DNA of 64,000 bases from Ophelia neglecta (Eukaryota): assembly GCA_965285935.1 (NCBI GenBank), contig OZ260661.1:62744001-62808000 (forward strand), read 5' to 3'. This document shows positions 22,001 through 60,977 of the stretch, piece after piece (within the stretch, counting starts at the first letter, position 1; every line of letters begins with the position of its first letter). The notes under the pieces are model-generated. The model did not search any database. It was not told the origin of the DNA and saw only the letters and a program-made list of their open reading frames with translations. The position numbers and the translations under genes were made by a program.

Positions 22001-24944
22001 TCAATGGTGTACCTGAAGAGAACAAGAATGAATTATCAAGGTGTGTTATAATGGCTGCTGCCAGGAAAGGACAACCACCTTTCATGAAAAACCCTTTTAT
22101 GTAGTAGGCTTGTCTGTGGCCGGTAGCAGGTAGGCTTGGCACTGCTCTGCTCTGCTCTACGCTGCTCTTTATCCTGCTAATTGATACAGCAGAGAAGGGG
22201 TCAGTGCCTGTTGGGTCCCATTTGATAACGCCTGTAACCTCCTTCCATTGCCAACAAAGAAGTCTTCCCTCAATCAATTAAGGTTGTATTCACTGTGAAA
22301 TGAAATGGAGTACATGTCTGTCACTTTTTTTTAGAGAGCAGGAATGAAATGTTATCTGTGCAAGTACTTTCACACTCTCGAGTTTCAGCGAGAAGAAATT
22401 CATTGAAACCTTAGTACCAATTGGAATGCCTCCATTTTCTATTCACCCTGACTGATGGCCCACTTCATGTGAATTTATGGCCTTACATGTATATTTTTCT
22501 GTACTAACACTATGGTGTGCAGTGGGTCATTAAAACTAGCCCTTGAGATTCTGTAGCATTAATTTAAGCTTTAGAGCCAGGAGAGAGCGGCCATTTCCGC
22601 AGTATCTATTTGCCTTTATGGCATTTCTGCTAGTGGTCATTATAGATGTAGCACCTGGTTCCTGCTTTGTGTACCTGTTGTTGATCAATGCTACATAGAA
22701 AACAGTTTATTACTCTGCAGACTGGTGGCTGTGCAGGCTGAGCCGGCAGCTGGGCCCGCTTGCCCATACATTTTTGTAGGTGTGATGCACATATCAAGAG
22801 AAGCTGTTGTTTAAAACACTGTTGAAGGTAGAGGAAAAAAGAGAAAAAGAACAAGGCATAAATTACTTGTTCTTGTGTCAGAATATGAATTCTGTAACAA
22901 AAGCAACTTTTATTATTGTCTCTGAAGCCATTTGCCTCTTAAAATAAATTCACATGAGGACAATCATGTACTAAACGCCTTCTGTTGGAAAATTTTAACC
23001 TGTGCCATGTATTGAGCGTTATGTTTCATTGTGTACTTTGTACATTTATGGTACATCTAATACTTGTCAGGTTGTTAATGTTTAATTGCTTGGATTAAGG
23101 ACGTCTAAGATTTCTTTTGTCTAATGGGACAGAGCAAAACAGGGATCACATATTATGCAAGAAGGAAGCTTTGCTGAAAATAAGGATGCAGATTGTTGTA
23201 TATAATTTACATGAACATGAATTTTCTAGGTTTAAATGCAATGGTCATATTAAACACAGCTAAATGCTTATAGGATTCATCAAACTAAAGGCAAATATAA
23301 GTTTTTATTCTAATATTTTTCCCTATTGGGGAAAGTTAATAGTGGAAGATGTGGAAAAATCTTTTTCTCATCATTTGCTCAATTTCTCCAGGGGAATTGC
23401 AAATTATAGTAATTAAAAGCTGTACATCTTATATTTAAATGTCAGTGATGTAGTATTAAACTTAATTATATGGAACAATGAATGCTGTTGAATACCAATC
23501 ACGTGATTTCTACTGTCCAATCAGCTAGTTTGGTGTTAAAGTTAATAGGTCTTAAGAAAGGTAGATGTTAGTATAAAACTCATTAAAGTTAAATTTCAAT
23601 AGATTACATCTTTTCCAACAGAACCTAGATTAACTCTATGAAGATATTTGATATTTTTATTTGCTTCAAATTTTAAGTGAAATATAGCTATAGATATTAG
23701 AACACATAGACATGATACAATTTATGTGTGTGTGTGTTTGGGGGAAATGTTTTGTACTATTTTTACCAAATGGTCTTTACAAGAACAGAAATGATAGGAA
23801 CTTTTTTGTCAAAAATTGCTATGACAAAGGCCAGTTCAGTGTTGTTCCTCCTCCCTTGTAGGACTCCAGTCATCTTGTACGAGGTTATCTGACAATCGGA
23901 GGATTCTACAAGAATCAATAGCTAACTGAAAATTTGGTTTGCACCCTCAATAATTGAATCATTGACTAGGTTTTTGAATGCAAGCCTGGCTGATGTAGTC
24001 CATAGAGGCGGGAATGATCTTGTCTGCTGCCTAATTGGATGCATTTTGTTACAATCTGTAATGGTCATCAATAAATATTTGAAAGGGATGAGAAAAATGC
24101 ATGTTGATTTGCATAGAGAATGCACAGGTCGGTTAGCTTGCCGCTCATTAGCATGTGTGTTTAGTTATTGCCATGACATTGAGCGTCAGCGGGACAGGTG
24201 GCCGGGCAACCTCTGTATTGTGGTTTGATCTAAACTGATGGAATTTTCATCATTTACTAATTTCCAGCTCCTGAGGGAAATTGTTCATGACCATTTGCAT
24301 TCATTAGTTTCCCACAATTCCTATTGTCTGCCATATTTGAGCAGATGAGATAAACACCCAGACCAGGCTGTCAATTGGATGGTATAGTCTAGTGTTTATC
24401 TTCCTGCCACATTGTCTGTACAGCAGAAAACATCCCTCTGTGCTATCGATATAAAGTTGATACCGGAGATTGATCCAAAATAACGGCTAATACTTACCCT
24501 GCCTCTAGCTTGGTTATAGTAGAAAGATAATTTTTTAAAGGTGAATCTTCTTATATCAATATTCAGTGGTAGGTTGAAGGAACTGAGTATATAGAAGCAA
24601 TTTAAGATAAATGCAAATATATGTCGGTGACTAGGGAGTTTAATATGATAGGGAAAATTCTCAAGATTGTCACCAACTGCTGGAGACAGATCTTTCTGTA
24701 TATATGGGTCAGTGTCTAGTGAGCTTTGGCAAGGAAAAATGTCCAGATTGTCACCAACTGCTAGGTATGGAGTTTTCATTCGAGCAGCTATTATCCCACT
24801 GCTTGTTCAGCTATTTCTTGCCGTATTTCCATCAAAAAGAAGTTGTCATTGATTTCTGCTTGAGGGTAGGAAAACACTCGCTGTCTGTGTGCAACTGGAG
24901 AAAATAGATGACATTTCTCAGCTGGATTCACATTGACAGCCTGA

Positions 24945-25720: not shown

Positions 25721-25768
25721 ATGAGATGCCAGTGTATTAAAACCATGAGATGCCAGTGTATTAAAACC
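25721..25768. repeat. Perfect 24-bp tandem duplication
   Basis: ATGAGATGCCAGTGTATTAAAACC occurs twice in tandem. Confidence 0.9.
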
Positions 25769-26039
25769 ATTCAGGGCACATTATGTAAGCCTTGACCTTT
25801 TCGGTAAGCATTGGTTTCACATTTTAAGCATAATGCCTTTTATGGTGTGTTAGGACACACAAGTTTTACGGTCACACCCCATAGATCTTGACAGTGTTGC
25901 CCACACTGGCAGGCTGCTGTGGAGGGACGGCATGTGTTCATATTGTCTCTGTCAATGATAATCATATTGAATTAATCATTAGACTCCAGAGGGGTAATGT
26001 GTGCACGAGTTGTCTTCTGCTATGCAGGATAGCACATGC

Positions 26040-26376
26040 TGTCGGCAGCGAATAAGCATTGCACCATTGCCAGATCGTCACACACACACAGTGGTTGGTT
26101 GGCTCGGAAGTGAGGTGGAAGTGAGGCTGGTCCCATTGCACCGCGGAGGATAAACAGAGTCGGAGTTTAGGTGCTGTGAGTTATTGATGCAGAGCTGCTT
26201 GTGGTGTGTGGTGGTGTAGTAACGCAGCCAGTCCAGTCGAGTAATATCCAGTTCAGCTTTTCCCTTTAAAGGAGAGAGACTCGTTGAAGACCTCTAGGAG
26301 GAGCACTTTTTCTAAGATTGTACACTTTGTACCCACACGCATGCACATTCCACGCACTCTCACCGACCGCTACAAT
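26040..26376 (+). promoter_or_regulatory. CpG-rich candidate internal promoter / 5' UTR
   Basis: About 19 CpGs counted by eye in 26041-26460, against about 2 in the AT-rich background stretch 5041-5460. Tandem ETS-like GGAAGTGAGG at 26106-26126. YY1-like AATATGGC overlaps the ATG at 26377. Confidence 0.5.
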
Positions 26377-26475
26377 ATGGCTGCTAACGTGATCCTACCA
26401 GCAGAGCCTTTGGTCTTTTATACTGTCAGTCCGCCGCCAGTGTGCCTACCACCCCCGCCGCCCATTTATCCAGTG
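26377..26475 (+). CDS. TIA1: Candidate alternative first coding exon of the TIA-1/TIAR gene (MAANVILPAEPLVFYTVSPPPVCLPPPPPIYPV)
   Basis: ATG in good context (AATATGG), 33 codons of protein-like Pro-rich sequence, and a phase-0 donor GTG|GTGGGT compatible with exon 29632. An in-frame upstream ATG lies at 26341. Confidence 0.62.
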
Positions 26476-29400
26476 GTGGGTACATGTTTCTTGGATTTGG
26501 GGGGTGGGGTAATATGTATGTGTATCAGTCTGGAGTATCTCTTCTGTAGTCTGTCTAAGTTGTGTTGCCTCTCACATCGGCAAGGCTCCGTGGAGCTGTC
26601 CGAAGTGGATGCTGCAGCAGGCTCTGGGCATTTGGATTATTGGTCTCAGTAGCGGGTGTCTGCAATAACCTGAGCTCTCTTGCAGAGATCTGTTATGTGA
26701 CATGGCCTTGGAGAGGATAACAGCAGATCTCAGTCTCAAGACACATGACACACTCCAAGGATGAGTATTGACATCCACTATGCTTAATCATTTCAAATTT
26801 TTATATTTAACCCTTTTTTACATAGAAGTCTGCATCTACTAGTGATTCACTACTCTCTCCTAGTATCCATGGGTAAAAGGGTTAATCTGTTTTGGCACTA
26901 ATTAATTATTCTTTCTCTCACATTGCAGATGCTGCCACCATACATAATTTGTTTTTTATCGTGTGCCTAATATTGCCTTTTGAATATATTGATTACCCTT
27001 ATTGATTTGATTTTCATCTAATTATTGTTTCAGTATGTATATATTGATATTTAAATTTGGCTATTTTAAATTTTAACTAGACCAAATGTATTTACCAGCC
27101 CATACACACTCACCGCATTTTTTGTGAAAATATTTGTTTTTGACTCTCATTTGTGATTCTATGATAGTGTGGCAGACGATCTGTCTGTCGAGCCAGTTGT
27201 TATTAGATGTATTGGAAGGTAAATTGAATTCCCAACAACCATTGATTGTATTTACCTGCAAAGTATCAAGTGATGTAGCCAGAAGGCCCACTGTGTGCTT
27301 TCTGGCATGTCAATGAATGAATGACAGGATTATCTGGAGTGAATGTGTAAAAGGCTAGACTGGATGGAAGTCTGGAGTCACCACAGTGTGCTGTGTGCAA
27401 TGTGAATGAAAGGTGTACAAAAGACCTATTTGTCAGAGTGCCCCATGCAAGCAACACTTTTACAATACAGCTGTTTCTAACTTGTTAAATTTATCAGGTA
27501 ATTAGTGGGCCATTGTTTATAAATAACAATTGAAAGTCATCAAGCTGGACACAGCTGAAGTCGGGGCTGGGGTGGTATAAAGCATGCCATTAAAGGACAA
27601 GATAAAAGGGAAATGAAGTGTGCCTGGCACATGCTCAGGGCTTACCAAGTCCAGGGGAGGAGGCCTGCTGGCTGGGGATTGGCCACACGGTGGTGTTCTC
27701 CTGGTCAGGAGGTGTCACAGGGAAGTGTCACTGGGTTAGTGGGCCTGGGAAAAAACAAGCCATATAAGGAACACAGCCTTTAGACATGCCTTAATGTTGT
27801 AACCTGTCTCCACTTGTCCCACTGACTCAAACTAAGTCAATGGGGCAAGATGTATTGTATATTAAACATTTTCTCTTTAGTTTATCATTGTTATTTATAT
27901 TATTATTATTACTATTATTATTTTACTTTTAAATTAACTTGCATGGCATATATAGAGTATGACCATGATTTAATTAATCAATATTTTTTAATCTTCTAAA
28001 GGCTTAATAGATTTGTTTAAGTATTTAAACACCTCTTTTGGATTTCATTTTCTGCATGAATGGTGATGAAATTGAGCATGAGAAGGGATTAGACATGTAT
28101 AATAGCTACGGCTGGCATGAATATCGCAGGCCAGTATCAGTGTCATGATTGTTGATAGCAATTTGGGGTGTGCAGTGGCCAAGTTGGTGAAGAGGCTCCT
28201 CATTGATCAATGTCAGTGACTGCTATTGATTGTAGCCAATCTGATAGATTGAGGCATTTTCATATTGACTTCCCTCAATAGGAAAATGACCTCCCTCTTG
28301 GCAAATTAAATGCGCCAACTTCCAGCCCTAGGACTAATGTTGACCACTGATGACTAAATTGACGACATGGTGCTCAGAGATACCGTGTTGGCTCTGATGA
28401 GTTTGCAATATTAATGTCCCAATTTTTGTCCTGTTGGAAAGCGGCGAAGAAGTTAAGGCATTTGTTCGCTGTAGGGTAGCAGCGAAGTTAGAAGAAATTA
28501 TATTCTGAAGACACCTTGTCTGTAGTTTTGCTGATCGTGACTAGTGTTGTCCCCTGCTGAAACATTGTATGTAGCATGGAGCATCCTGCATTATTTAGCA
28601 GATCTACCCATAGGCTATTCAGTTTCCTAGCCTGAAGAAAATGATGTCCGTGTTTGCATGGGGCACGTATGAAGAGTGCACACTCGGGAGATGGCTGGTG
28701 CAATATGCTGCCATGAGAGATGAGTGTGTGGATGTGTGTACCAAGCAAAATTGAACATTGATGTTTTGTGGCTGGGTTGTGCAAACCATGAGATAATTTG
28801 CAATAATAATGCCATGTGATTTGGCCTCACTTGGTATGAATTGGTTTTGCTTTGTTTACAAAGAGCTAGTGTACATTTCATCTGCTCATATTTGACATAA
28901 ATGAGATTGTTTGTTGAGCAAAATTGCCAATCAGAAGTATCTGAGTTTGATGCTATTGGAAATTGATATAATGTTTAGCTAAATTTACATCTAGCAAATA
29001 TAAAGAAACCTGAATCAAAGCATTAAATTGCACATTATCTCTCCTTTGTATGGCAGCTCATTCTAATAAAACATTAGGATATGCCTATTCAAGTTATACT
29101 TAATTCCTTGCATTTGTACACGATAGATAATACAGCTTCACACAAATAAAAATATCATGGAAAAAGATGTTGTTTAAATTTAGTTGCCAAAGCTGTAGTC
29201 AGTAAATATCTCGAGAGACTATGTATTATAGTAGTGGTATAGGACATACCCTGCTCACACTGCCCAGTGTGGTCAGACAGTAGATCAGGGCCTGTCAACA
29301 GAGTATATATAAAATAAGAGTACAGGGCCCTTTTCTTGCTCAATTCTTGTGCAATATTACTGAATGTTTGTATGTGAAAATTAAATGATATTCTCAATTT

Positions 29401-29631
29401 TAAACACCTGTATCGCATGTAACCTGGCTACAAATAATTCAGATATACTTATGCTAAATTGACTTAATTATTTTGAATCATTTAAATTCTTCTTTTGGAC
29501 ATGCTTCACCATACTGTTTTTATAATATATAAATTTATTATCCTTGCTTTTAATTTATAAGAGATACTTTTATGGCCTTTGTTTGTATACCTTTTTTAAT
29601 TAAATTAACATGTTCTTTTCCTGTTTTGTAG

Positions 29632-29689
29632 GAAATGAAAGTGAATTGGGCCACATCTCCTGGAAATCAGCCAAAACAGGACACAAGCA
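29632..29689 (+). CDS. TIA1: TIA-1/TIAR exon: end of RRM1 and linker (EMKVNWATSPGNQPKQDTS)
   Basis: Acceptor TTCTTTTCCTGTTTTGTAG| and donor GCA|GTAAGT; 58 nt, phase 0 to phase 1. The KVNWAT motif is characteristic of TIA1/TIAL1/Rox8. Confidence 0.95.
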
Positions 29690-32443
29690 GTAAGTACTAG
29701 ATGTCACCAGCATTTATCATCACTGCTCATCATTAGATGATGCTCGCTTACACACTCCTGCCACACACAGTACCTATCCTCAGCCCTGACCGAAAAACTC
29801 TATATTTGCAAATCAGCGAAAACTCAATCCACTGAAAACCCAAAGACAATATATTTCCTGTGCATGTGTGCAAATGTTCACATCATATTACAAGGCATAT
29901 TAAAACAGTTTATCAGTAATGTCAGTTAGTACTTAACTAACCTCTTTTTATGCTAACTAAAGGCTTCAGTACATGTATTGATCAAACATTGCATGTGTAT
30001 ACCACATGTAGTACGAATAATCTCTTCAAATTTCCAACCTGTCCCAAATCATGCTGAACTAAACACAATCTAGGCATTGTTCCTTTTTTTTAAAGCAAAT
30101 TTGCTTACACAGTGTAGCAAGTGGATTATTGCAATAAGCTTATAGCACATTGTCAATAATCAAGGAAATCAATGAATTGGATAACCTTATGAACCAGTGA
30201 AAAGTGGCTGGAGGCTTATTGAAGGGCGTGGAAGAATTATGAAAGGACCCCTCAACTGATCTGCTAACTATGGTCATTTTGATTAAAAATATCTGTGAAC
30301 AGTGTATTTCTGATAAAAGCAGATACTCCAGAGCAAAATACTGCCTGATATTTTGCAAAAAAGGAAGGCAATGCCTAACTAATCCGATATAATATTTCCA
30401 GAGTTATTTTTCAACCTCACCTGCCTATATTTCATTAAAATCACCTATTATGTTTCTGTTTCAAAAACAGCCCCTGTTTTATGATCATATTTCTAGCATG
30501 ATGTAACATCAATATTTTACAATATTGCCTTGGTGAAGAGTCAATATTTAGGTGCTTGGCTTTTATATCTGCCTGAGTATCTGCCTGAGGATAGCAATAT
30601 GTGCCCTCTCCCATGCTTCTCTGGCAGATATAGGCATCCATGGGCAGAATATTAAGTGTTAGCTGATATTATGTTTTACACGCCTTTAAAAAGATTATGA
30701 GCCAGCCAAGTATTCCCAGTTGGGTCTTTTATCCGTTTAATATGAAAGTGCTCTAATGCGGTCTTTTGACCCTGAGCTTTGGACTCTATATAAACTGTGG
30801 GACCCTTGAAAACATGGCAGCAGTAATCAAGCGTCTTTAAGGTGTGCTTTTGTTAAAACTCGAAAATCCTGCAAATATCTGTAGACCCTTGCTTCATCGA
30901 GTTGACAACTAAGTTACTTTTGAACGGGAGTTTATTTTAATTTTGGGACACTTCCTACTTTAATGAAAGCGAATTTGTTAAATGATGATAAACTAACATC
31001 AAAGCTGATATATTGTCATATTAACTGGTCCTCGTGTCCAACAGATTGTACTGTACCTACAGTGGGGGTGGGGTATCTAACTAACTTGACCAAAAGCAAG
31101 TGATCTTCCTGTAATTAGATCTGAAGGATTTGTTTCTTGCTCAAGACCAGTCTACATGTAGTTATATGCTGCCTTGGTAAATACAAGGCAATATTTGTTT
31201 TATTACTTACGTTTATTCTCTTTAAAGCTCTGGTCTGTTTCCTTCTTAGTCACTTTAGAGGGTTTGCACTGATTCTTGGTTGAAACAGTCTCTCCGGCAA
31301 TATCCCTCCAGCAATATCCTTTTGCCAAGCAATATCTGCTGATCCCTGAGACATCCTAAGATGTCATCAGGCATGTGACTGGCATCTGACCAATAAGGTG
31401 GCCCTATCCTCCTAACATGTGTAATAATTATTGATATCTTGAAAAAAACAAATCTAGCATCAGCTATGACATAATATATATTTATGCTCATGCTAAGAAA
31501 CAAAAAGCCAGGAGATTTCTTGAAATATTAATTTGAAATAGCCAAATATTAATGTGTAGTGATATTAGGAAAACAATCAAATAATAAATTTGATGTAAGA
31601 TTGTTTTTGATAATATTTCAATGGTTTTATAACTGTCATCTTTGTTCAAGCAGACCTTTGGCTTTGGCTTAGGCTTACCTCATCAATTGCTATGATTTAG
31701 CATCATAGGCTTAATTGTGGAAAATAAAAGATATGCAGCTAAAAGCCGCTTACCAAGTGGCAGTGATATTGGTCAATGAGTCATGTAAGCAGTCATTACT
31801 TACCATCAGCTGTTCACTCACCATGAGCACATGTATTTTCCGGCAGATGTACAAAGGACCTCCAGTATGTAGGCTTTTCAGCATTTGTGTTCATCTGTAA
31901 TATCTTGGGAGTAAATTGGGGCCAGATAGGTGCTGTGTCTGTGCCGGTGTTATTTATTGGATCCTGTCATTGGCTGTACATTCCTTTTGACTCGGGACCC
32001 AGTGCTAGGGTATCCCAGATAATAGCCCAAACCACCCGATTTTGATGGCATAGATTCAGCCGGATTGTGTTACTTGAAAATTGCCCCTGCCGGAGACTGG
32101 CCATTTCACAATACCGTTTGGGCTCATGGTTTTTATTTTAGATTTCCTTGGCCAAATAGACCATTTGTAGTGCTGTGCAGGAAGGAAGGCCTTCCTGTGG
32201 AAAATTAACCTCTGGGTAGGAGGTATAGTATATCATAGCTCAATGGCAGAAGTCATGTCAACATTTGGCCTTAGAGGGATGACAAGCTAAAATCATATTT
32301 AAGTCTCACTAGCCCGCTTGATTTAGAACACTTGGGATGCATAGAATAGTTGCAAGTGTGAATTTTGTAGTTGAGAGTAGAGCCAGTAAGCAGGCTCAAG
32401 TCGGTGACAGCTTTAAAACAACATCCAGTTTTAGTATCAATCC

Positions 32444-33265
32444 AACACCAGGCTGAAAACCAGGCTGAACACCAGGCTGAACACCGGGCAGAACACCGGG
32501 CTGAACACCAGGCAGAACACCAGGCAGAACACCGGGCTGAACACCGGGCAGAACACCGGGCTGAATACCAGGCTGAACACCGGGCAGAACACCGGGCTGA
32601 ACACCAGGCAGAACACCGGGCTGAACACCAGGCAGAACACCAGGCAGAACACCAGGCTGAACACCAGGCAGAACACCGGGCTGAACACCAGGCTGAAAAC
32701 CAGGCTGAACACCAGGCTGAACACCAGGCAGAACACCGGGCTGAACACCAGGCAGAACACCAGGCAGAACACCAGGCTGAACACCAGGCAGAACACCAGG
32801 CTGAACACCAGGCAGAACACCGGGCTGAACACCAGGCAGAACACCAGGCTGAACACCAGGCAGAACACCAGGCTGAACACCAGGCAGAACACCAGGCTGA
32901 ACACCAGGCAGAACACCAGGCAGAACACCAGGCTGAACACCAGGCAGAACACCAGGCTGAACACCAGGCAAAACACCGGGCTGAACACCAGGCTGAACAC
33001 CGGGCTGAACACCGGGCTGAACACCAGGCAGAACACCAAGCTGAACACCAGGCAGAACACCAGGCTGAACACCAGGCAGAACACCAGGCTGAACACCAGG
33101 CAGAACACCAGGCAGAACACCAAGCTGAACACCAGGCAGAACACCAGGCTGAACACCAGGCTGAATACCAGACATAACACCAGGCAAAACACCAGGCTGA
33201 ACACCGGGCTGAACACCGGGCAGAACACCGGGCTGAACACCGGGCTGAACACCGGGCTGAACACC
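32444..33265. repeat. 12-bp minisatellite GAACACC(A/G)GGC(T/A), about 68 copies
   Basis: Direct reading; explains the three long low-complexity ORFs (EHQA/EHRA, VQPG/VLPG, VFSL/VFCL). Confidence 0.98.
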
Positions 33266-36200
33266 CTGCCCTGTGTCTGCAGCATGTAGTTCAGTGCCCC
33301 TTAGGATGTTCAGAGCACTAAGGCCCGCTCGTATGGTGTGCTTTTATTGAAAACTGTCACCTATTTGACAATATTACTTTCATAACTATGGCCATTCCCT
33401 GATCCGGGCACAAGGAAGGAGCCTGAATGACAGCTAGAATTAGATGCCATGAAAGAAAATAATGCCCGACTAGGTCAGCACATCATTGAATCCATTATGA
33501 GGCAAGATCCATTGGTGCATTGCCTTGTATGGTAAAATGGCCAAGCAACTGTGTTACCAAAAGTGAATTAATGGGTCACGAGATGCTGATTTGTCAGTAA
33601 TTTAGGTACATCAAGTCTTGATGGCTTGTGACAGGCAGTGCATAAGTGGGAGCCATTGTAGCATCCGTTGGACAGGAGTATCTAATGAACTACATAAGCA
33701 TCTACTCAGGTTTACAAAAGATAAGGCATAGTGGTAAAAAAACAACAGGAAGCATGAACTACATGGTCGAAGATTGCCTGCCGTCTGATAGTTTCACCTC
33801 TCATTTACCACCTTTATCTTTGAAGTTTGCATGTTAAAAGGTTCTGGGTGGCATGTACATGTACATGTGTATGTCTATCATCCTCCCGAGTGGTGTTTGA
33901 AAACTGGGCAAAAGCTCCAGTTTTCCAAAAGATAATGTTTTTGTAGGTTTCTTTTGTAAATAGCATATTACTTATAAACTAAACCCCCTTGAAAGATTTG
34001 TGGATAGGTTTTGCTCTGTGAATTGTTAATGTGGCTCTTGTGGCATTAAATGTAGTATAGCTAAGCCCACTGCTTTGTATCAGATGGAACAAAGTATAAG
34101 CCCATTGCCATGCTCATTGGTGGAAAACAGGTCCTCCAGGAATTGTTCAATTTTCCTGTTACTGGAGCGCCTGACACAGAGACTCTTCGACTTGTCTTTG
34201 CTTACGAGAAATATTAAGCAGAGTCAATAACAATGGAGAAGAAGAAAATTGGGAACAAGTTTGTGTAGTCCTTGGGGAGGTCACCTGGTAGCGTTCCTTG
34301 ACTGAGGATCGAAGAGAGACCTCGTCTTACTGTGGAGCTTCCTGCAGCCGTCGGCTGACTGACTGCATGTGCTGGGATTCACCCTCTAACATAACGAGTC
34401 ATTGACATTCATTTCTGTGCAGTGCCATTAAGTATTTAAGCCCAAAACACTCATGAACTCAAGTTCTGAGATAACAGGCACTTTTTAATCATTTTCATAA
34501 GCTGGGCAGGCTCACTAATACAAAGTGGATAATGGGAACAATATTGGAGCACACAATCAGAATAGTAAATCAAGGTTTGCATTTTTGCTTGATATTGTAG
34601 ATTGCAGCTGATCAAGACGATCCATTGTGAAAGAAATGACCCTATTACACTTTTAGCACACCAATCTGAATGACCAAAACTTTGATTCAGCTAGTGACTA
34701 TCCCAGATAAAAGATCAGTCAGTCGACAATCTGATTACTGCACTGGAGATGGAAAACTGCTTGATTTATGAACAAAATGCAACAGCCATTAAAGTGGCCA
34801 TTCATGGCCACTCCTGCCAAATGTTTCCTGGAATGGAACTGGCAAACATAATATGCAGACCTCTCTTTTATGTGTCATGACACCCCATCCGCATCTCAGC
34901 ACATGAATGTGTACAGCTCGAAATATTGAGTTCTCTGCTGACGTGTAATATCTCAGAACCGCAGAAGGCACTGCATCGGGTTGCCCTCCTAGAAGGCCAA
35001 TTGAGAGAGGTGACCAACAAAATAAAATGAAGTACTGGGTAAATAATGAAACTATCCAGTTAGAATGTATAATTAATCAGGTGGACTTGTGTGTACACGA
35101 CTCTCTAGTTTATTAACCAACACACAAGATCTAGTGGGCTAGACCACAAACATATTGCTCTAATAGGCCATTCAAAAATGGGTTTGAGCAGCCCCCCTCT
35201 ACTGCTCTCATCAGTAGATGAAGACAGATTGGAGTGTCAGAGCAAATTAGAATGATTGAAGAGCACTACTTGTATGGCTAACCTTTGACGAGTGCTGGCA
35301 ATCTATAGCCTGGCAATTTCTCTGAACTGTCTAGGAGTGATCAGAGTCAACGTTTGTTATAAATATTTAATCAATATTAGATATTTAGTGTGTTTAATTT
35401 GATATTGCCTTTAATATATTTAAAGTACTTTAAATACGAGCCTTGCCCATCTGTAGTAATAATGTGCCATATTCCCTGTGTTGTATTTCGTCCAGATATT
35501 GGCAGTTACTTTGATTTATTGTTTGCAAGAAGAGCCTGTGGCACTCTATTTCTCGGCTTTGAGAGGTGTGTGCTTAGCAGAATTGTAGTCATAATGAGAT
35601 TGTGTATTGTATGAACTGATTGTGAGAAGTTTGTTTGGCTGTGAACCACCCCCTCATCACCAGCTGCAAAGGTACTCACTGAGAGAATCTCACTCAATCT
35701 TGTTTACATGATTAATTGAATTAATCAGGGATAAAATATCAGATGGAGGCTATGGGTTTAGTAGGCCTCTGATATTTCCTCCGATGAAGATGAGTACTAT
35801 TGAGTTAGCATTCAGTCGCTGTGCCGCGTGTATTTAAGTGTTTTGTTCTGATTCTCTGAGCGGTGGCAGTATGAGCAACTTGTGATTTATGCTGGGATAT
35901 TAAGGACGGATATGACCGGCAGTCCACAGGAGTGGGTTCCGTGGCATACAGGCAACTTGGTATGCTGCCTGACTGATTAGTTTACGAATTTTTGGTGCTG
36001 GTGCTATTGTATCACAAGATCTGTTGCAGAATCATTAGCTGCTCGTCTATTGTGCTCAGTTCCTTGAATAGGCAAGTCCTTTCTGTCATTAGTTTACCAG
36101 GCATATACCGTTTACACGAAATGATTGTGATAAAAAGTAAACAGGCTCTATGAGCTCGATGCTCTCTGTTCTCAAGAATAGACATTGTGCAGGCTAAAGT

Positions 36201-44320: not shown

Positions 44321-45499
44321 AGGAGGAGTGTACAGCCTCCTGAGGCTGACCTCTACCTCCAGGAGGAGTCTACAGCCTCCTGAGGCTGACCTCTACCTCC
44401 AGGAGGAGTGTACAGCCTCCTGAGGCTGACCTCTACCTCCAGGAGGAGTCTACAGCCTCCTGAGGCTGACCTCTACCTCCAGGAGGAGTGTACAGCCTCC
44501 TGAGGCTGACCTCTACCTCCAGGAGGAGTCTACAGCCTCCTGAGGCTGACCTCTACCTCCAGGTGGAGTGTACAGCCTCCTGAGGCTGACCTCTACCTCC
44601 AGGAGGAGTGTACAGCCTCCTGAGGCTGACCTCTACCTCCAGGAGGAGTGTACAGCCTCCTGAGGCTGACCTCTACCTCCAGGAGGAGTGTACAGCCTCC
44701 TGAGGCTGACCTCTACCTCCAGGAGGAGTCTACAGCCTCCTGAGGCTGACCTCTACCTCCAGGAGGAGTGTACAGCCTCCTGAGGCTGACCTCTACCTCC
44801 AGGAGGAGTGTACAGCCTCCTGAGGCTGACCTCTACCTCCAGGAGGAGTCTACAGCCTCCTGAGGCTGATCTCTACCTCCAGGAGGAGTCTACAGCCTCC
44901 TGAGGCTGACCTCTACCTCCAGGAGGAGTGTACAGCCTCCTGAGGCTGACCTCTACCTCCAGGAGGAGTGTACAGCCTCCTGAGGCTGACCTCTACCTCC
45001 AGGAGGAGTGTACAGCCACCTGAGGCTGACCTCTGCCTCCAGGAGGAGTGTACAGCCTCCTGAGGCTGACCTCTACCTCCAGGAGGAGTGTACAGCCTCC
45101 TGAGGCTGACCTCTGCCTCCAGGAGGAGTGTACAGCCTCCTGAGGCTGACCTATACCTCCAGGAGGAGTGTACAGCCTCCTGAGGCTGACCTCTACCTCC
45201 AGGAGGAGTCTACAGCCTCCTGAGGCTGACCTCTACCTCCAGGAGGAGTGTACAGCCTCCTGAGGCTGACCTCTACCTCCAGGTGGAGTCTACAGCCTCC
45301 TGAGGCTGACCTCTACCTCCAGGAGGAGTGTACAGCCTCCTGAGGCTGACCTCTACCTCCAGGAGGAGTCTACAGCCTCCTGAGGCTGACCTCTACCTCC
45401 AGGAGGAGTCTACAGCCTCCTGAGGCTGACCTCTACCTCCAGGAGGAGTCTACAGCCTCCTGAGGCTGACCTCTACCTCCAGGAGGAGTCTACAACCTC
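44321..45499. repeat. 40-bp minisatellite, 29 full copies plus a partial copy
   Basis: Unit AGGAGGAGT(G/C)TACAGCCTCCTGAGGCTGACCTCTACCTCC, head-to-tail with no spacers. Confidence 0.99.
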
Positions 45500-48400
45500 A
45501 GTAGATCACTATTTATGCTGGAGCATCACCAATGAATATGGACAGGGTGTGAGTTTGTATATGCTGAAGCCTCTGAGCAAGAGTATTAATTATACCATGT
45601 GGCAAGGAATTACAATAATCTAGCCAATTAAATATAATTATATCCTAAGCATGTTTCAAGATGCTTGAATATGCTTAATGCCTTTTTAAGGCAGCACACA
45701 TGTAAGGCTATCATGTACAGCATTTTGCATTCAAATCTGAACCAGGCCCAACCCATCATTCTCATCAGTCACAATACTGCCATCAATTTGCATATGGGGC
45801 AATGGAGGATGTTATAAACCCTCCATATAGCTCACTCTAATTCATACTAATGATTATTTCGCATGATGTTTCTTTACAGCTTTGCCATCCTGCTGGAATA
45901 CGTGTTGCGCAGTTGAGCCCTGGTGTTTTAAACATAATATTATTTCCACCACCTGTGACCCTCAGGAATCGAATCTGCAGTGAAAGCCGCATGCTCTGCA
46001 TATTGATACTAGATGCAAATATGCATCAGTGACAAGGGCCAGACAACGGGCTTTGTTCTGTTTTGAATAACAAAACTTGAAAACAGTTAATTCCCTCGCA
46101 GCTTGGCATTATGTTGTCACCAGATGTAGTTGATTTGCAATATGATATTTCATGAGCAGACAAACCCATCATATTAAGATCTCACAATACCCATTACAGC
46201 TTTCAAACAGTTGCAGAGAATTTTGGATATATTAACAATGATTCCAATATCTAGAACAATTTATTATTTACTGGTAGTCTTCAGACAAATGATTGCCATG
46301 TTTTTAAACAGTGCACTGTGTAGTTTCTTCCAGATAATAACTAATATAAAATTCATTTTTTCCTGATAAATACCTATATGGTTTCTTTATATTCAACCCA
46401 CATAAATATTTAGCTTGATGGTGATAATAGCATAATTCCACCTTGCCTGGCATAATAATTCCCCATTTGGCCATTAAACTGCCGCCAGGAGACCTCCCTC
46501 TGCTGCAAGCCGGTCATGAGTTTGGTGTGCTACCATTTCATAGCCTTCGATGAAGGTGGTGATTGATGACTCGGCCATTCTACACCCTACCATCATATCC
46601 TAAGAGGGATTTACGAGGAGCAGATGACCCTCAGTGACATCCCTACTCTTATTGCTCTGCTTGTTTCCACTGGCAGGCGTTTGCCGGGCTTCGGATAAAA
46701 TACAAGGCAGAAGTCCTTCTGCTTTGATGAGTGACAATTTTAGCCAGGCTTTTGTTTTTTTTGTCTGGTTAAAGAGTCACTGCTGTGGTGTGTTTTTCCT
46801 GGATGTATTATTATGCAAGCCACCCGGTTTCTCTTCTCAGCTGATGCTTTCGGCAGGCTGCACCTTACTTCTAAACGGATGTTTAGGTTAGTGGGTGACC
46901 TATCAATTGACTGGTCTCATGCATATCATTAGGCATCAAGTACCACTTCATGACCAGTTCATAACTTACTGCCTGATATTGTCAAAGAAAACAGTTTCCC
47001 ACCCTCAGCCTGTTATTGCTCATGTATTGCCTCAGTCTGTATGATGTGAGAGCATTGAAGGCCCAGCAGACCTGAATAATACATGGAAATTGCCATTTAG
47101 ATATGCGAGTGGACATACAAGCAGTTGGGGTTATGTGGTGGCGATGAAGAAGGTTGGCGCCAGGCTGGGTCTGTATGCCAGCCAGCAGATTACATGGGGA
47201 AAGCAGGAACAGAAATTTTGCTCTAGGGGGACCCTTGCCAATTTTCAGCATAGACATTAGCCCAAATCTTTGTCCAAAATTATGTGACTTAAGGCTTGGG
47301 AAATTTCCAACCAACAGTGGAGGTCATTCTCCATTATGGGCACCCTCTGAACTTGGTAGATAATATCCCAATTTCTGCGGCAATCCTCTGTCAATAAGAT
47401 TTTAAGTATCAGTTAATGCTGCCATGAACTAAAACTATTACCCTAAAGTGCCATAGAAAGGTTACCAACTGGTGTCAGAAGAAATTGACATCAAGCAGGT
47501 TATTGGAGCAATTATTGTGTTACTGTATTGGACATTCTTTTTCGTTCAGAATCTATTAATTCTTTTTTATATACCTATAATTCAACAGTGTCACTATACC
47601 TTGTATTAGATGTTAATTTGAAGTGTGTATTTAAGCAATTGATTTTCCTTCCTAGTGAGTGGTAAGGTAGAGGATGTGGTGTAGTGGATATTTTTGTTGC
47701 CTTACACCACCGATGTCTTTTTAAATGCCCTAGGGGGAGAATCAATCAAAGCGTTTAGGTAAATGTGTCCAAACCCCCCAGTTATCTGGATTGAAGTGTT
47801 ACCAGCTTTATTTCCTCACTGCTCTTGGTGGTGGTCTATTTGAAATGGCAGGCACTTCCGTCAACATCCTGGCTACAAAATAGCAGTTCCTAGAATTTCC
47901 TGGATATAGTGTGTCAGACCCTAATACTCAGGACATTGAGATGAAGGCAGGTGGACAGTTTCAAGCAGGAATACTATTGATCCCAGCTAATGCCATTAAG
48001 GATGAGGCGGCTTATTAGCTCTGAATTACAGTTGGAGTGATTCTGCTGCAAATCCCGCAACAAGTATCTGGATTATGAGCCGAATCTGGTAGTCCTTGTG
48101 TATGGACATTATATCTGCCGAATAGGTCAGTCCTCTTTCCAAGAGACCAGAAGATGTCTTTTAGCCGGGGAATGGCTGGCGTTATTGATTTTGGCCTGTG
48201 GTTGATCAGCTGCAAATAGTTTCCAGTTGGTCTGCCATCTAGTCTGCAAATTATCTATATGTGTTAGTGTATAGACCTGATAATGGCATGTCCCTGTCAT
48301 AAGCATGTATTTTATTGTAGCATCAGCTGATGTGGTCCTTTTTTTCTGAAGCAGTTTGAGAGCCAGGAGAGTTTTGGCCATTTCATGTTAGAGGTCTGTC

Positions 48401-59779: not shown

Positions 59780-60350
59780 AATGCCGTGACAGATTCCTAT
59801 ATCGCAGCCTGCCTATTGGCCGATTAATTCTGGAGATTTCTGGCAATCCATGCACACTTGCGTGGGACCGACCCAGCCCCAAATCCCACCGAGCATTGAC
59901 TATTTCGGCAATGGTCCTACAGCATCTTTCGCTGAACAGCAAGCGATCACAGCGGGGGCATGTATCGCGCTTCAAACACCATGCTCCTTGCATGGAAACT
60001 AGCATCCTGTATTTTAGCGTGTTCAACATGATCTCACACTCAACAAAAGCCTGTCATTTTGAGAATTTTTCATTATGAAGAAATAAAAAACACGTTTAGT
60101 TCTAACTGAGCCATGTGCGATTTAAATTCGGTGTGTTCATTTTTATTTAGCTTAGATGTGAACATTCGGCTGGTCTGGAAATGTGTCACGGTCATCGTAC
60201 GCATTCTCACAGCATGCGGAATATCGGCAATCTCTGCTGTCAGTCAACGGAATGGCCTCCGACGATGTCGGAGTAGTCACCCCATTGGCGGTGGCAGCGC
60301 TGACAGGTCAAAATGTGCAGACGACATTACTGAGACAATAGCCAGAACGA
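59780..60350. promoter_or_regulatory. CpG-rich patch, candidate unmethylated regulatory element or internal promoter
   Basis: About 30 CpGs counted by eye in ~600 nt, the densest patch in the window, ~550 nt upstream of the RRM2 exon. Confidence 0.4.
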
Positions 60351-60889
60351 TTCTTTTCACAAACAAACACAGTGCAAAAGAAATCAAAGGAAAGTTTGAC
60401 CAAAGATTAAAGCATGTGGAGTGACCATGCCCTCGTTGTGATTTGAACCGTACAGTACTCCTAAAAATTTAAAAGGAGCCTAGTGTCCGTGAGCTTTGTT
60501 TAGCAGGGTCAATTAGCAACAAGCATTGAAAAGTCACGTTCAATGATAGAAAATGTATCATTTGACTATGCATTTCCTAGTTATTATTAAAATGTTTTTC
60601 ACCAAATTGATGACCTTGTTATTATTAAATCAATTACAGTAAGCCCTGGGGCTCATCTTATGTTTTTTAGCTCTGCACATACAGGGGCGGCAGGAAAACA
60701 CCAAAAATAAATATATTCAGTGAAAAACCTGTGGGACTCGTGCATGGTGTATTGGGTCTTGTACACAACAATCACGACTATTGTATCAACCTGTTTCTAT
60801 TAATTAAAAGTTCGGGTTAATTTCAGTGTATAAATGGCCATAAAAACATATATAAATGTTCTGTATTAACTTTTATTTATTTATTCCAG

Positions 60890-60977
60890 AGCACTTCCAT
60901 ATATTTGTGGGTGACCTAAGTCCGGATATTGAAACACATCAGTTACGTGAGGCCTTCGCACCATTTGGACATATTTC
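60890..60977 (+). CDS. TIA1: TIA-1/TIAR exon: start of RRM2 including RNP2 ((K)[28 protein letters not shown](S))
   Basis: Acceptor TTTTATTTATTTATTCCAG| and donor TTC|GTAAGT; 88 nt, phase 1 to phase 2. The IFVGDL RNP2 motif and AFAPFG are typical of TIA RRM2. Confidence 0.96.

What the first reader, a model, noticed from the sequence alone, without database searches (positions are those of the whole stretch)
26040..26481. Internal CpG-rich promoter with a proline-rich first exon carrying a PPxY motif
Seen: CpG-rich patch, tandem GGAAGTGAGG, AATATGGC start, and a peptide ending CLPPPPPIYPV at a phase-0 donor. A small 5' UTR intron is possible (GTGAGT 26176 to TTTTCCCTTTAAAG 26271). Known: PPxY binds WW domains (NEDD4-family ligases, YAP). 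Inference: an RRM1-less TIA isoform that trades RRM1 for a WW/SH3 ligand, linking it to ubiquitination or signalling.
Basis: partly seen in the sequence, partly recalled or inferred. Interest (0 to 1): 0.7.

Follow-up and report, generated by a model that had tools for sequence, protein, structure and literature searches.

The report
RRM1-swapped TIA-1 isoform from internal promoter
A worm's stress-granule and splicing gene TIA-1 carries an extra exon, likely with its own promoter, that is spliced into mRNA in a related species and swaps the protein's first domain for a short conserved peptide, likely changing its partners, but the proposed PPxY docking motif is not the conserved part.

Summary
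Real feature, wrong motif. Window 26377-26475 encodes a 33-aa peptide inside the 69-kb intron that splits RRM1 of a TIA-1/TIAR gene (probably an annelid). One RNA contig of a relative joins it to the exon at 29632 and on to RRM2; an unnamed public protein has the same architecture. The first 21 codons show 13 synonymous and 0 replacement changes against another species. RNA contigs from 4 of 4 studies end at 26105-26131, beside the ETS-like repeat, in a CpG-retaining hole of a CpG-depleted gene body: a likely internal promoter (weak, contig-level evidence; no RNA of this species laid). PPxY is present in only 2 of 6 close orthologous peptides, in 0 of 43 retrieved RRM1-less N-termini, and arises in 19-35% of shuffles. 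The proposed 5' UTR intron is read through in all four runs. RRM1-less isoforms spliced to the same exon, each with a clade-specific conserved N-terminus, sit in public gene models of molluscs, a brachiopod, spiders, ticks, barnacles and insects; nine searches found no paper on them. Likely effect: RNA binding kept, RRM1's U1C-helper role and Cys36 redox site lost.

The parts
26018..26229 (+). Conserved non-coding block: likely internal promoter and start of the 5' UTR
   Evidence: 9 differences in 212 nt in relative DNA X8, 1 in 125 nt (26105-26229) in RNA run X1; single copy in the genome; CpG-retaining
26105..26126 (+). Tandem ETS-like sites (CGGAAGTGAGG, GGAAGTGAGG); RNA contigs end here or just downstream (likely start region)
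   Evidence: Only CGGAAGT in the 69-kb intron; contig ends at 26105, 26106, 26121, 26131 without loose ends; motif name recalled, ETS enrichment in annelid promoter UMRs from PMC11292947
26176..26271 (+). Proposed 5' UTR intron: not supported
   Evidence: Contigs of X1-X4 read through the donor to 26226-26229; X3 bridges the whole stretch unspliced; 26230-26316 is replaced by unlike letters in the relative
26187..26219 (+). Ten-codon upstream ORF in the conserved 5' UTR, out of frame with the main start; role untested
   Evidence: lies in the block with 1 difference in 125 nt; not seen in L022
26374..26381 (+). AATATGGC: YY1-like motif overlapping the start codon
   Evidence: T26376 is C in the relative; motif name recalled; such matches are common (22 in about 185 kb)
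26377..26475 (+). Coding part of the alternative first exon, 33 aa, disordered, proline-rich; residues 1-21 strongly conserved
   Evidence: 13 synonymous, 0 replacement changes in 21 codons vs L022; 6 of 7 listed changes at third positions and an in-frame 3-nt insertion in X8; pLDDT 40-53 in the orthologue
26458..26469 (+). PPxY (PPIY): present, lineage-restricted
   Evidence: PPVY in the close relative; absent in P0001, P0002, P0003, L022
26476..29631 (+). Phase-0 intron of the short isoform
   Evidence: Skipped by X3 contig, depth 24.9
29632..29689 (+). Shared exon (EMKVNWA..., last stretch of RRM1 and the linker); accepts either the RRM1b donor 69 kb upstream or the alternative exon
60890..60977 (+). 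First RRM2 exon of the same gene
   Evidence: X3 and X4 loose ends after 29689 read into it

Best explanation
This is an alternative coding exon of a TIA-1/TIAR gene, spliced to the shared exon at 29632 in a relative's RNA and likely transcribed from its own internal promoter, giving an isoform that replaces almost all of RRM1 with a conserved 33-residue disordered peptide and likely keeps RNA binding while losing RRM1's protein-interaction and redox roles. Shown: gene structure, junction in a relative, coding constraint starting exactly at the Met, predicted intact RRM2-RRM3 and a disordered N-terminus in an orthologue. Inferred: start site near 26090-26105 in an unmethylated hole of a methylated gene body, driven by ETS/YY1-type factors. 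Inferred from human TIA-1 work: RRM2-3 still bind U-rich RNA and the Q-rich tail still self-associates, but help in recruiting U1C is weaker and the Cys36-equivalent is gone, so the isoform would act as a competitor or modulator in splicing and as an oxidation-resistant stress-granule/translation-silencing form. The new peptide likely carries a short docking or phosphorylation motif in residues 1-25 (hydrophobic LVFY followed by S-P-P), partner unknown; PPxY is likely a local accident of a polyproline run next to a Y-P.
For: [quoted passage not shown]
Against: No RNA of the window's own species was laid; all RNA evidence is contigs of a relative, which show neither strand nor true start, and only 1 of 4 runs bridges the junction. 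Only 7.7-14% of annelid UMRs are promoters, and two other CpG patches in this gene are as rich. The ETS repeat is not found upstream of the L022 exon. All functional steps are carried over from human TIA-1; none was tested in a worm. PMC4027183 also cites a study in which RRM1 does contribute to poly-U binding.
Confidence: 0.7

Rival explanations
1. One reading: the isoform's purpose is the PPxY motif, which binds WW domains (NEDD4-family ligases or YAP/Yorkie) and links TIA to ubiquitination or Hippo signalling.
For: PPIY is a formal match and survives as PPVY in the close relative; it lies in a disordered stretch; the Y-P after it is kept in 4 of 6 MAANV-type peptides.
Against: Absent from P0001, P0002, P0003 and L022, where the first 21-22 residues are near-invariant; no [PL]PxY in 43 distinct RRM1-less N-termini; chance 19-35%.
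Confidence: 0.12
2. The stretch is an internal cassette exon spliced behind the RRM1 exons, using the acceptor at 26271 (204 nt, open and in frame, breaking RRM1) or at 26027 (448 nt, stop-containing poison exon for TIA autoregulation by decay).
For: Both acceptors exist; 26272-26475 is open and a multiple of three; conservation with X8 begins at 26018, just before the 26027 AG; poison-exon autoregulation of TIA genes is recalled, not from a call.
Against: Contigs of 4 of 4 RNA runs cover 5' of 26271 and none reaches 26028 or shows a loose end there; constraint begins at the Met, not at an acceptor; L022 has in-frame stops upstream; the 26230-26316 stretch is not conserved. Contigs drop rare variants, so minor use is not excluded.
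Confidence: 0.1
3. The isoform matters only because RRM1 is removed; the peptide is a start codon plus filler, and its conservation reflects overlapping promoter or RNA elements.
For: Other clades use unrelated N-termini on the same exon, some as short as 3-9 residues; the adjoining 5' UTR is even more conserved than the codons in the close relative.
Against: 13 of 21 codons change silently and none changes the residue, which is protein-level, not DNA-level, constraint; clade-specific N-termini are themselves conserved over long spans.
Confidence: 0.08

Closest known systems
TIA-1/TIAR (TIA1, TIAL1, Drosophila Rox8) family
   Same: Same gene: RRM1, RRM2, RRM3 and Q/G/Y-rich tail; the full-length look-alike P0005 matches human TIA-1 RRM2-3 at E 3e-79 and RRM1 at 5e-30; this genome's RRM1 exon matches human RRM1.
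   Different: The two reviews' passages describe only the a/b isoforms (11-aa exon in TIA1, 17-aa insert in TIAR RRM1); here nearly all of RRM1 is replaced by way of a separate first exon.
Predicted RRM1-less TIA isoforms in public gene models (for example Owenia CAH1784366.1, Haliotis XP_046366213.1, Octopus CAI9718754.1, Lingula XP_013381009.1, Stegodyphus XP_035210468.1, Odontomachus XP_032672402.1)
   Same: Alternative N-terminus joined at the same E[ML]KVNW junction; low-charge, P/hydrophobic-rich.
   Different: N-terminal sequences differ by clade (MHPYY.VQY in molluscs, M[LV]FVP in insects and barnacles, TQT-bearing forms in molluscs and spiders); homology with the worm peptide is not shown; they are automatic models, some probably artefacts.
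PTBP3 isoforms lacking RRM1 (PMC4477659, seen as search listing only)
   Same: An RRM protein made in an N-terminally shortened form by alternative splicing and initiation (title; holds the phrase 'lacking RRM1').
   Different: Different family; I did not read the paper, so the route and effects are not compared.
PPxY ligands of WW domains (NEDD4-family, YAP) (recalled)
   Same: Formal PPxY in a disordered proline-rich stretch.
   Different: Not conserved among orthologous peptides; no binding evidence.

Membership tests
TIA-1/TIAR family | Three RRMs with TIA-type sequence | tested here: met
   Eight coding exons mapped, RRM1 to RRM3; matches to human TIA-1/TIAR chains
TIA-1/TIAR family | Q-rich low-complexity C-terminal tail | tested here: met
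   Last mapped exon runs into a G/Q/Y-rich stretch; disordered in the orthologue model
Alternative first exon (internal promoter) | Spliced to a downstream constitutive exon in mRNA | tested here: met
   X3 contig of a relative; P0001; not shown for this species
Alternative first exon (internal promoter) | Capped transcription start with no upstream exon | tested here: inconclusive
   Four contigs end at 26105-26131 without loose ends, a weak hint only; CAGE not available
Alternative first exon (internal promoter) | Translated from its own start codon | tested here: met
   Coding constraint from the Met on, none upstream; indirect, no proteomics
Unmethylated CpG-type promoter | CpG retained against a depleted gene body | tested here: met
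   O/E 0.64 vs median 0.25; similar patch in L022
Unmethylated CpG-type promoter | Low methylation, H3K4me3, open chromatin | not testable with these tools
   No methylome or chromatin data for this genome
Class I WW-domain ligand (PPxY) | PPxY in a disordered region | tested here: met
Class I WW-domain ligand (PPxY) | Motif conserved above its flanks in orthologues | tested here: not met
   2 of 6 close orthologues, while residues 1-21 are near-invariant
Class I WW-domain ligand (PPxY) | Binds a WW domain | not tested
   No complex prediction sent: a pass would follow from likeness to solved structures
Poison or cassette exon | Upstream acceptor used in mRNA | tested here: not met
   No joint or loose end at 26028 or 26272 in 4 of 4 RNA runs of a relative; rare use not excluded

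The most novel reading that the evidence does not exclude
Protostome TIA genes share an ancient, undescribed switch: an internal promoter in the intron before the last stretch of RRM1 makes a two-RRM TIA that cannot be shut off by Cys36 oxidation and recruits U1 poorly, and each lineage has fixed its own N-terminal docking peptide there (the near-invariant worm peptide, MHPYY.VQY across gastropods, bivalves and octopus, M[LV]FVP from barnacles to ants, and a TQT motif of dynein-light-chain type in both molluscs and spiders).
Probability: 0.35. Interest if true: 0.65.

Novelty: new variant of a known kind. Interest (0 to 1): 0.45.

Why it matters
TIA proteins nucleate stress granules and steer weak 5' splice sites. 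RRM1 is the domain whose role is least clear, and two reviews call isoform-specific function poorly studied. A natural, conserved RRM1 swap gives a direct test of what RRM1 does and suggests that invertebrates separate TIA's splicing and stress roles with a promoter switch. The near-invariant worm peptide is a candidate new linear motif. The WW-domain link that gave the first score of 0.7 does not hold, and similar isoforms already sit unremarked in public annotations, so the surprise is moderate.

Tried and rejected
PPxY as the conserved function: rejected. 5' UTR intron: not used in the relative. RNA structure as the reason for 5' UTR conservation: none of 4 stretches folds better than shuffles (z -0.23 to 0.84). 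phmmer of the 33-mer over 1.84 billion representatives: 0 hits at E 0.001. Atlas search of residues 1-52 of P0001: best score 0.81, uninformative. Further alternative first exons in the 69-kb intron: tblastn with the retrieved RRM1-less N-termini found only this exon below E 0.01, and no TQT-plus-donor candidate was printed. The two other CpG patches showed no obvious exon by eye; not shown to be promoters. U-rich tract after the alternative donor: 11 T in 30 nt, like the other four donors (9-12), so no sign of special TIA self-regulation. AlphaFold gave no packing of the peptide on RRM2 (pLDDT 40-53), on a 26-row alignment with few rows for the peptide. Absence of RRM1-form contigs on the shared exon in the RNA runs was not used as evidence. 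Earlier-findings look-ups returned nothing. No complex prediction was run.

Full report
Observation. The peptide is single-copy in the 762-Mb genome, as is the upstream block.

Host gene. A Pfam RRM search and exon mapping on 100 kb of flank each side give one TIA-1/TIAR gene on the + strand: short 5' exons near C1:62698285-62698412, two RRM1 exons at C1:62698618 and 62704763, a 69-kb intron holding the finding, the EMKVNWA exon (window 29632-29689), the first RRM2 exon (60890-60977) and four more exons beyond the window. The nine best-scoring proteins over six exons are unnamed; the best of 15 named ones is the annelid Ridgeia, though Owenia and a partial Capitella protein score below several molluscs. 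The animal is probably an annelid; no tree was built.

Promoter evidence. The gene body is CpG-depleted (O/E 0.28) between flanks at 0.73 and 0.69, the pattern expected from invertebrate gene-body methylation (PMC11292947, passages; PMC13345969, abstract). The finding has 19 CpG in 442 nt (O/E 0.64; gene-body median 4 and 0.25); two other patches are as rich. It holds the only CGGAAGT of the intron. PMC11292947 reports ETS, ELK3, YY1 and NRF motifs in annelid promoter UMRs, but also that only 7.7% and 14.1% of UMRs are promoters. The orthologous exon in L022 also has a GC/CpG-rich upstream patch (O/E 0.65, GC 0.56 vs 0.39 and 0.38), but not the ETS repeat. RNA contigs of a relative from four studies end at 26105, 26106, 26121 and 26131 with no loose 5' letters, while the relative's DNA goes on. 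The tool rates that as a weak hint. No RNA run on record for this species was offered; X5 lay as continuous genomic sequence.

Splicing. One 1176-nt contig in run X3 covers 26121-26226 and 26317-26459, crosses with 12 letters that complete the exon to 29631-29689, and goes on into the RRM2 exon. The other three runs do not bridge the junction. All four read through the proposed donor at 26176, and X3 spans the whole proposed 5' UTR intron unspliced. P0001, from a sequencing-run assembly, is the complete isoform in a third species.

Coding constraint. In relative X8, 6 of the 7 listed changes in the 99 coding bases are at third positions (binomial P 0.007), the other is Ile to Val, and the one indel is 3 nt in frame (four differences of that piece were not listed). 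Against L022 the first 21 codons show 8 identical, 13 synonymous, 0 replacement. Upstream of the Met there is no similarity and L022 has in-frame stops. An in-frame ATG at 26341 is not conserved.

PPxY. Among six peptides with the MAANV start, PPxY is in the window and its close relative (PPVY) and missing from P0001 (ends PPPTGVYPL), P0002, P0003 and L022. P0009, P0011 and Owenia P0118 lack it too. Of 289 proteins retrieved, 253 had the junction anchor, 175 had RRM1 and 78 did not; none of the 78 (43 distinct N-termini of 12 residues or more) has [PL]PxY. Shuffles of the peptide give PPxY in 19%, or 35% with prolines fixed.

Wider pattern. The RRM1-less set includes gene models from octopus, abalone, limpet and bivalves (MHPYY.VQY), barnacles, mayfly, adelgids and Hymenoptera (M[LV]FVP), spiders, ticks and Lingula, all joined at the same junction. 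Four N-termini, two molluscan and two spider, carry TQT, which resembles a dynein-light-chain motif (recalled). Some entries are truncations or intron read-through. The sample is the top of three searches plus 20 clusters I picked; no deuterostome was in it, so their state is unknown. Whether the exons share one origin is not shown.

Mechanism. The AlphaFold model of P0001 has folded RRM2 and RRM3 and a disordered first 50 residues. [quoted passage not shown] Oxidation of Cys36 blocks mRNA binding and granule assembly (PMC4729832, passages); that position aligns to a Cys in the skipped exon. I infer that the short isoform binds the same RNAs, recruits U1 less well, escapes Cys36 oxidation and gains a partner through residues 1-25. 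These steps are untested.

Rivals. A cassette reading is possible on sequence alone: the acceptor at 26271 gives an open 204-nt exon, the one at 26027 a 448-nt exon with stops; neither is used in the contigs. The WW-ligand reading survives only as a lineage-specific extra.

Odd extra. The 5' UTR block 26105-26229 differs at 1 of 125 sites against 6 of 33 third positions (Fisher P 3e-4), has no notable structure and holds a ten-codon upstream ORF. The runs were found through shared 31-mers, which favours such a block, and it is not recognisable in L022.

Literature. Nine full-text searches listed no paper on a natural RRM1-less TIA isoform; the library lacks most subscription papers. Passages of two reviews name only the a and b isoforms. 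Two papers with 'delta RRM1' use engineered RRM1+2 deletions (passages); a C. elegans preprint only names TIAR as a candidate regulator (passage). No supplements were read.

Verdict. A real, conserved alternative first exon; a new variant of a known family; PPxY and the 5' UTR intron rejected. Interest 0.45.

Noticed in passing
window 26105-26229: 5' UTR block more conserved than synonymous sites in the close relative (1 of 125), unstructured, with a ten-codon upstream ORF at 26187 and a GU-rich run; reason unknown.
   Followed up: partly
window 24817-24943, 28200-28313, 28735-28945: Intronic blocks conserved in relative DNA X8; 28735-28960 also appears in low-depth contigs of two RNA runs. 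Possible enhancers or pre-mRNA.
   Followed up: no
window 59900-60400 and G000:C1:62742700-62743500: Two more CpG-retaining patches inside the CpG-depleted gene body; the second has repeated TTCGGTTAA and may be a small transposon; neither shown to be a promoter.
   Followed up: partly
G000:C1:62698248-62698307 (L006): GCGCATGCGC (NRF1-like, recalled) just before a short ATG exon, likely a promoter of the full-length isoform; CpG depletion begins about 20 kb further upstream, so other 5' exons may exist.
   Followed up: partly
P0170, P0144, P0042, P0080: Mollusc and spider RRM1-less N-termini both end near a TQT motif (dynein light chain type, recalled), hinting at a second, older alternative exon.
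   Followed up: partly
P0154, P0173, P0240, P0062, P0069, P0055: An 18-20-residue tyrosine-rich N-terminus is conserved across octopus, gastropods and bivalves.
   Followed up: partly
window 25722-25769: Exact 24-nt tandem duplication upstream of the promoter patch.
   Followed up: no
window 44400-45600 and 32000-34000: GC-rich stretch with no CpG at all (44401-45600) and an A-skewed GC-rich stretch (32001-34000); probably tandem repeats or a transposon remnant.
   Followed up: no
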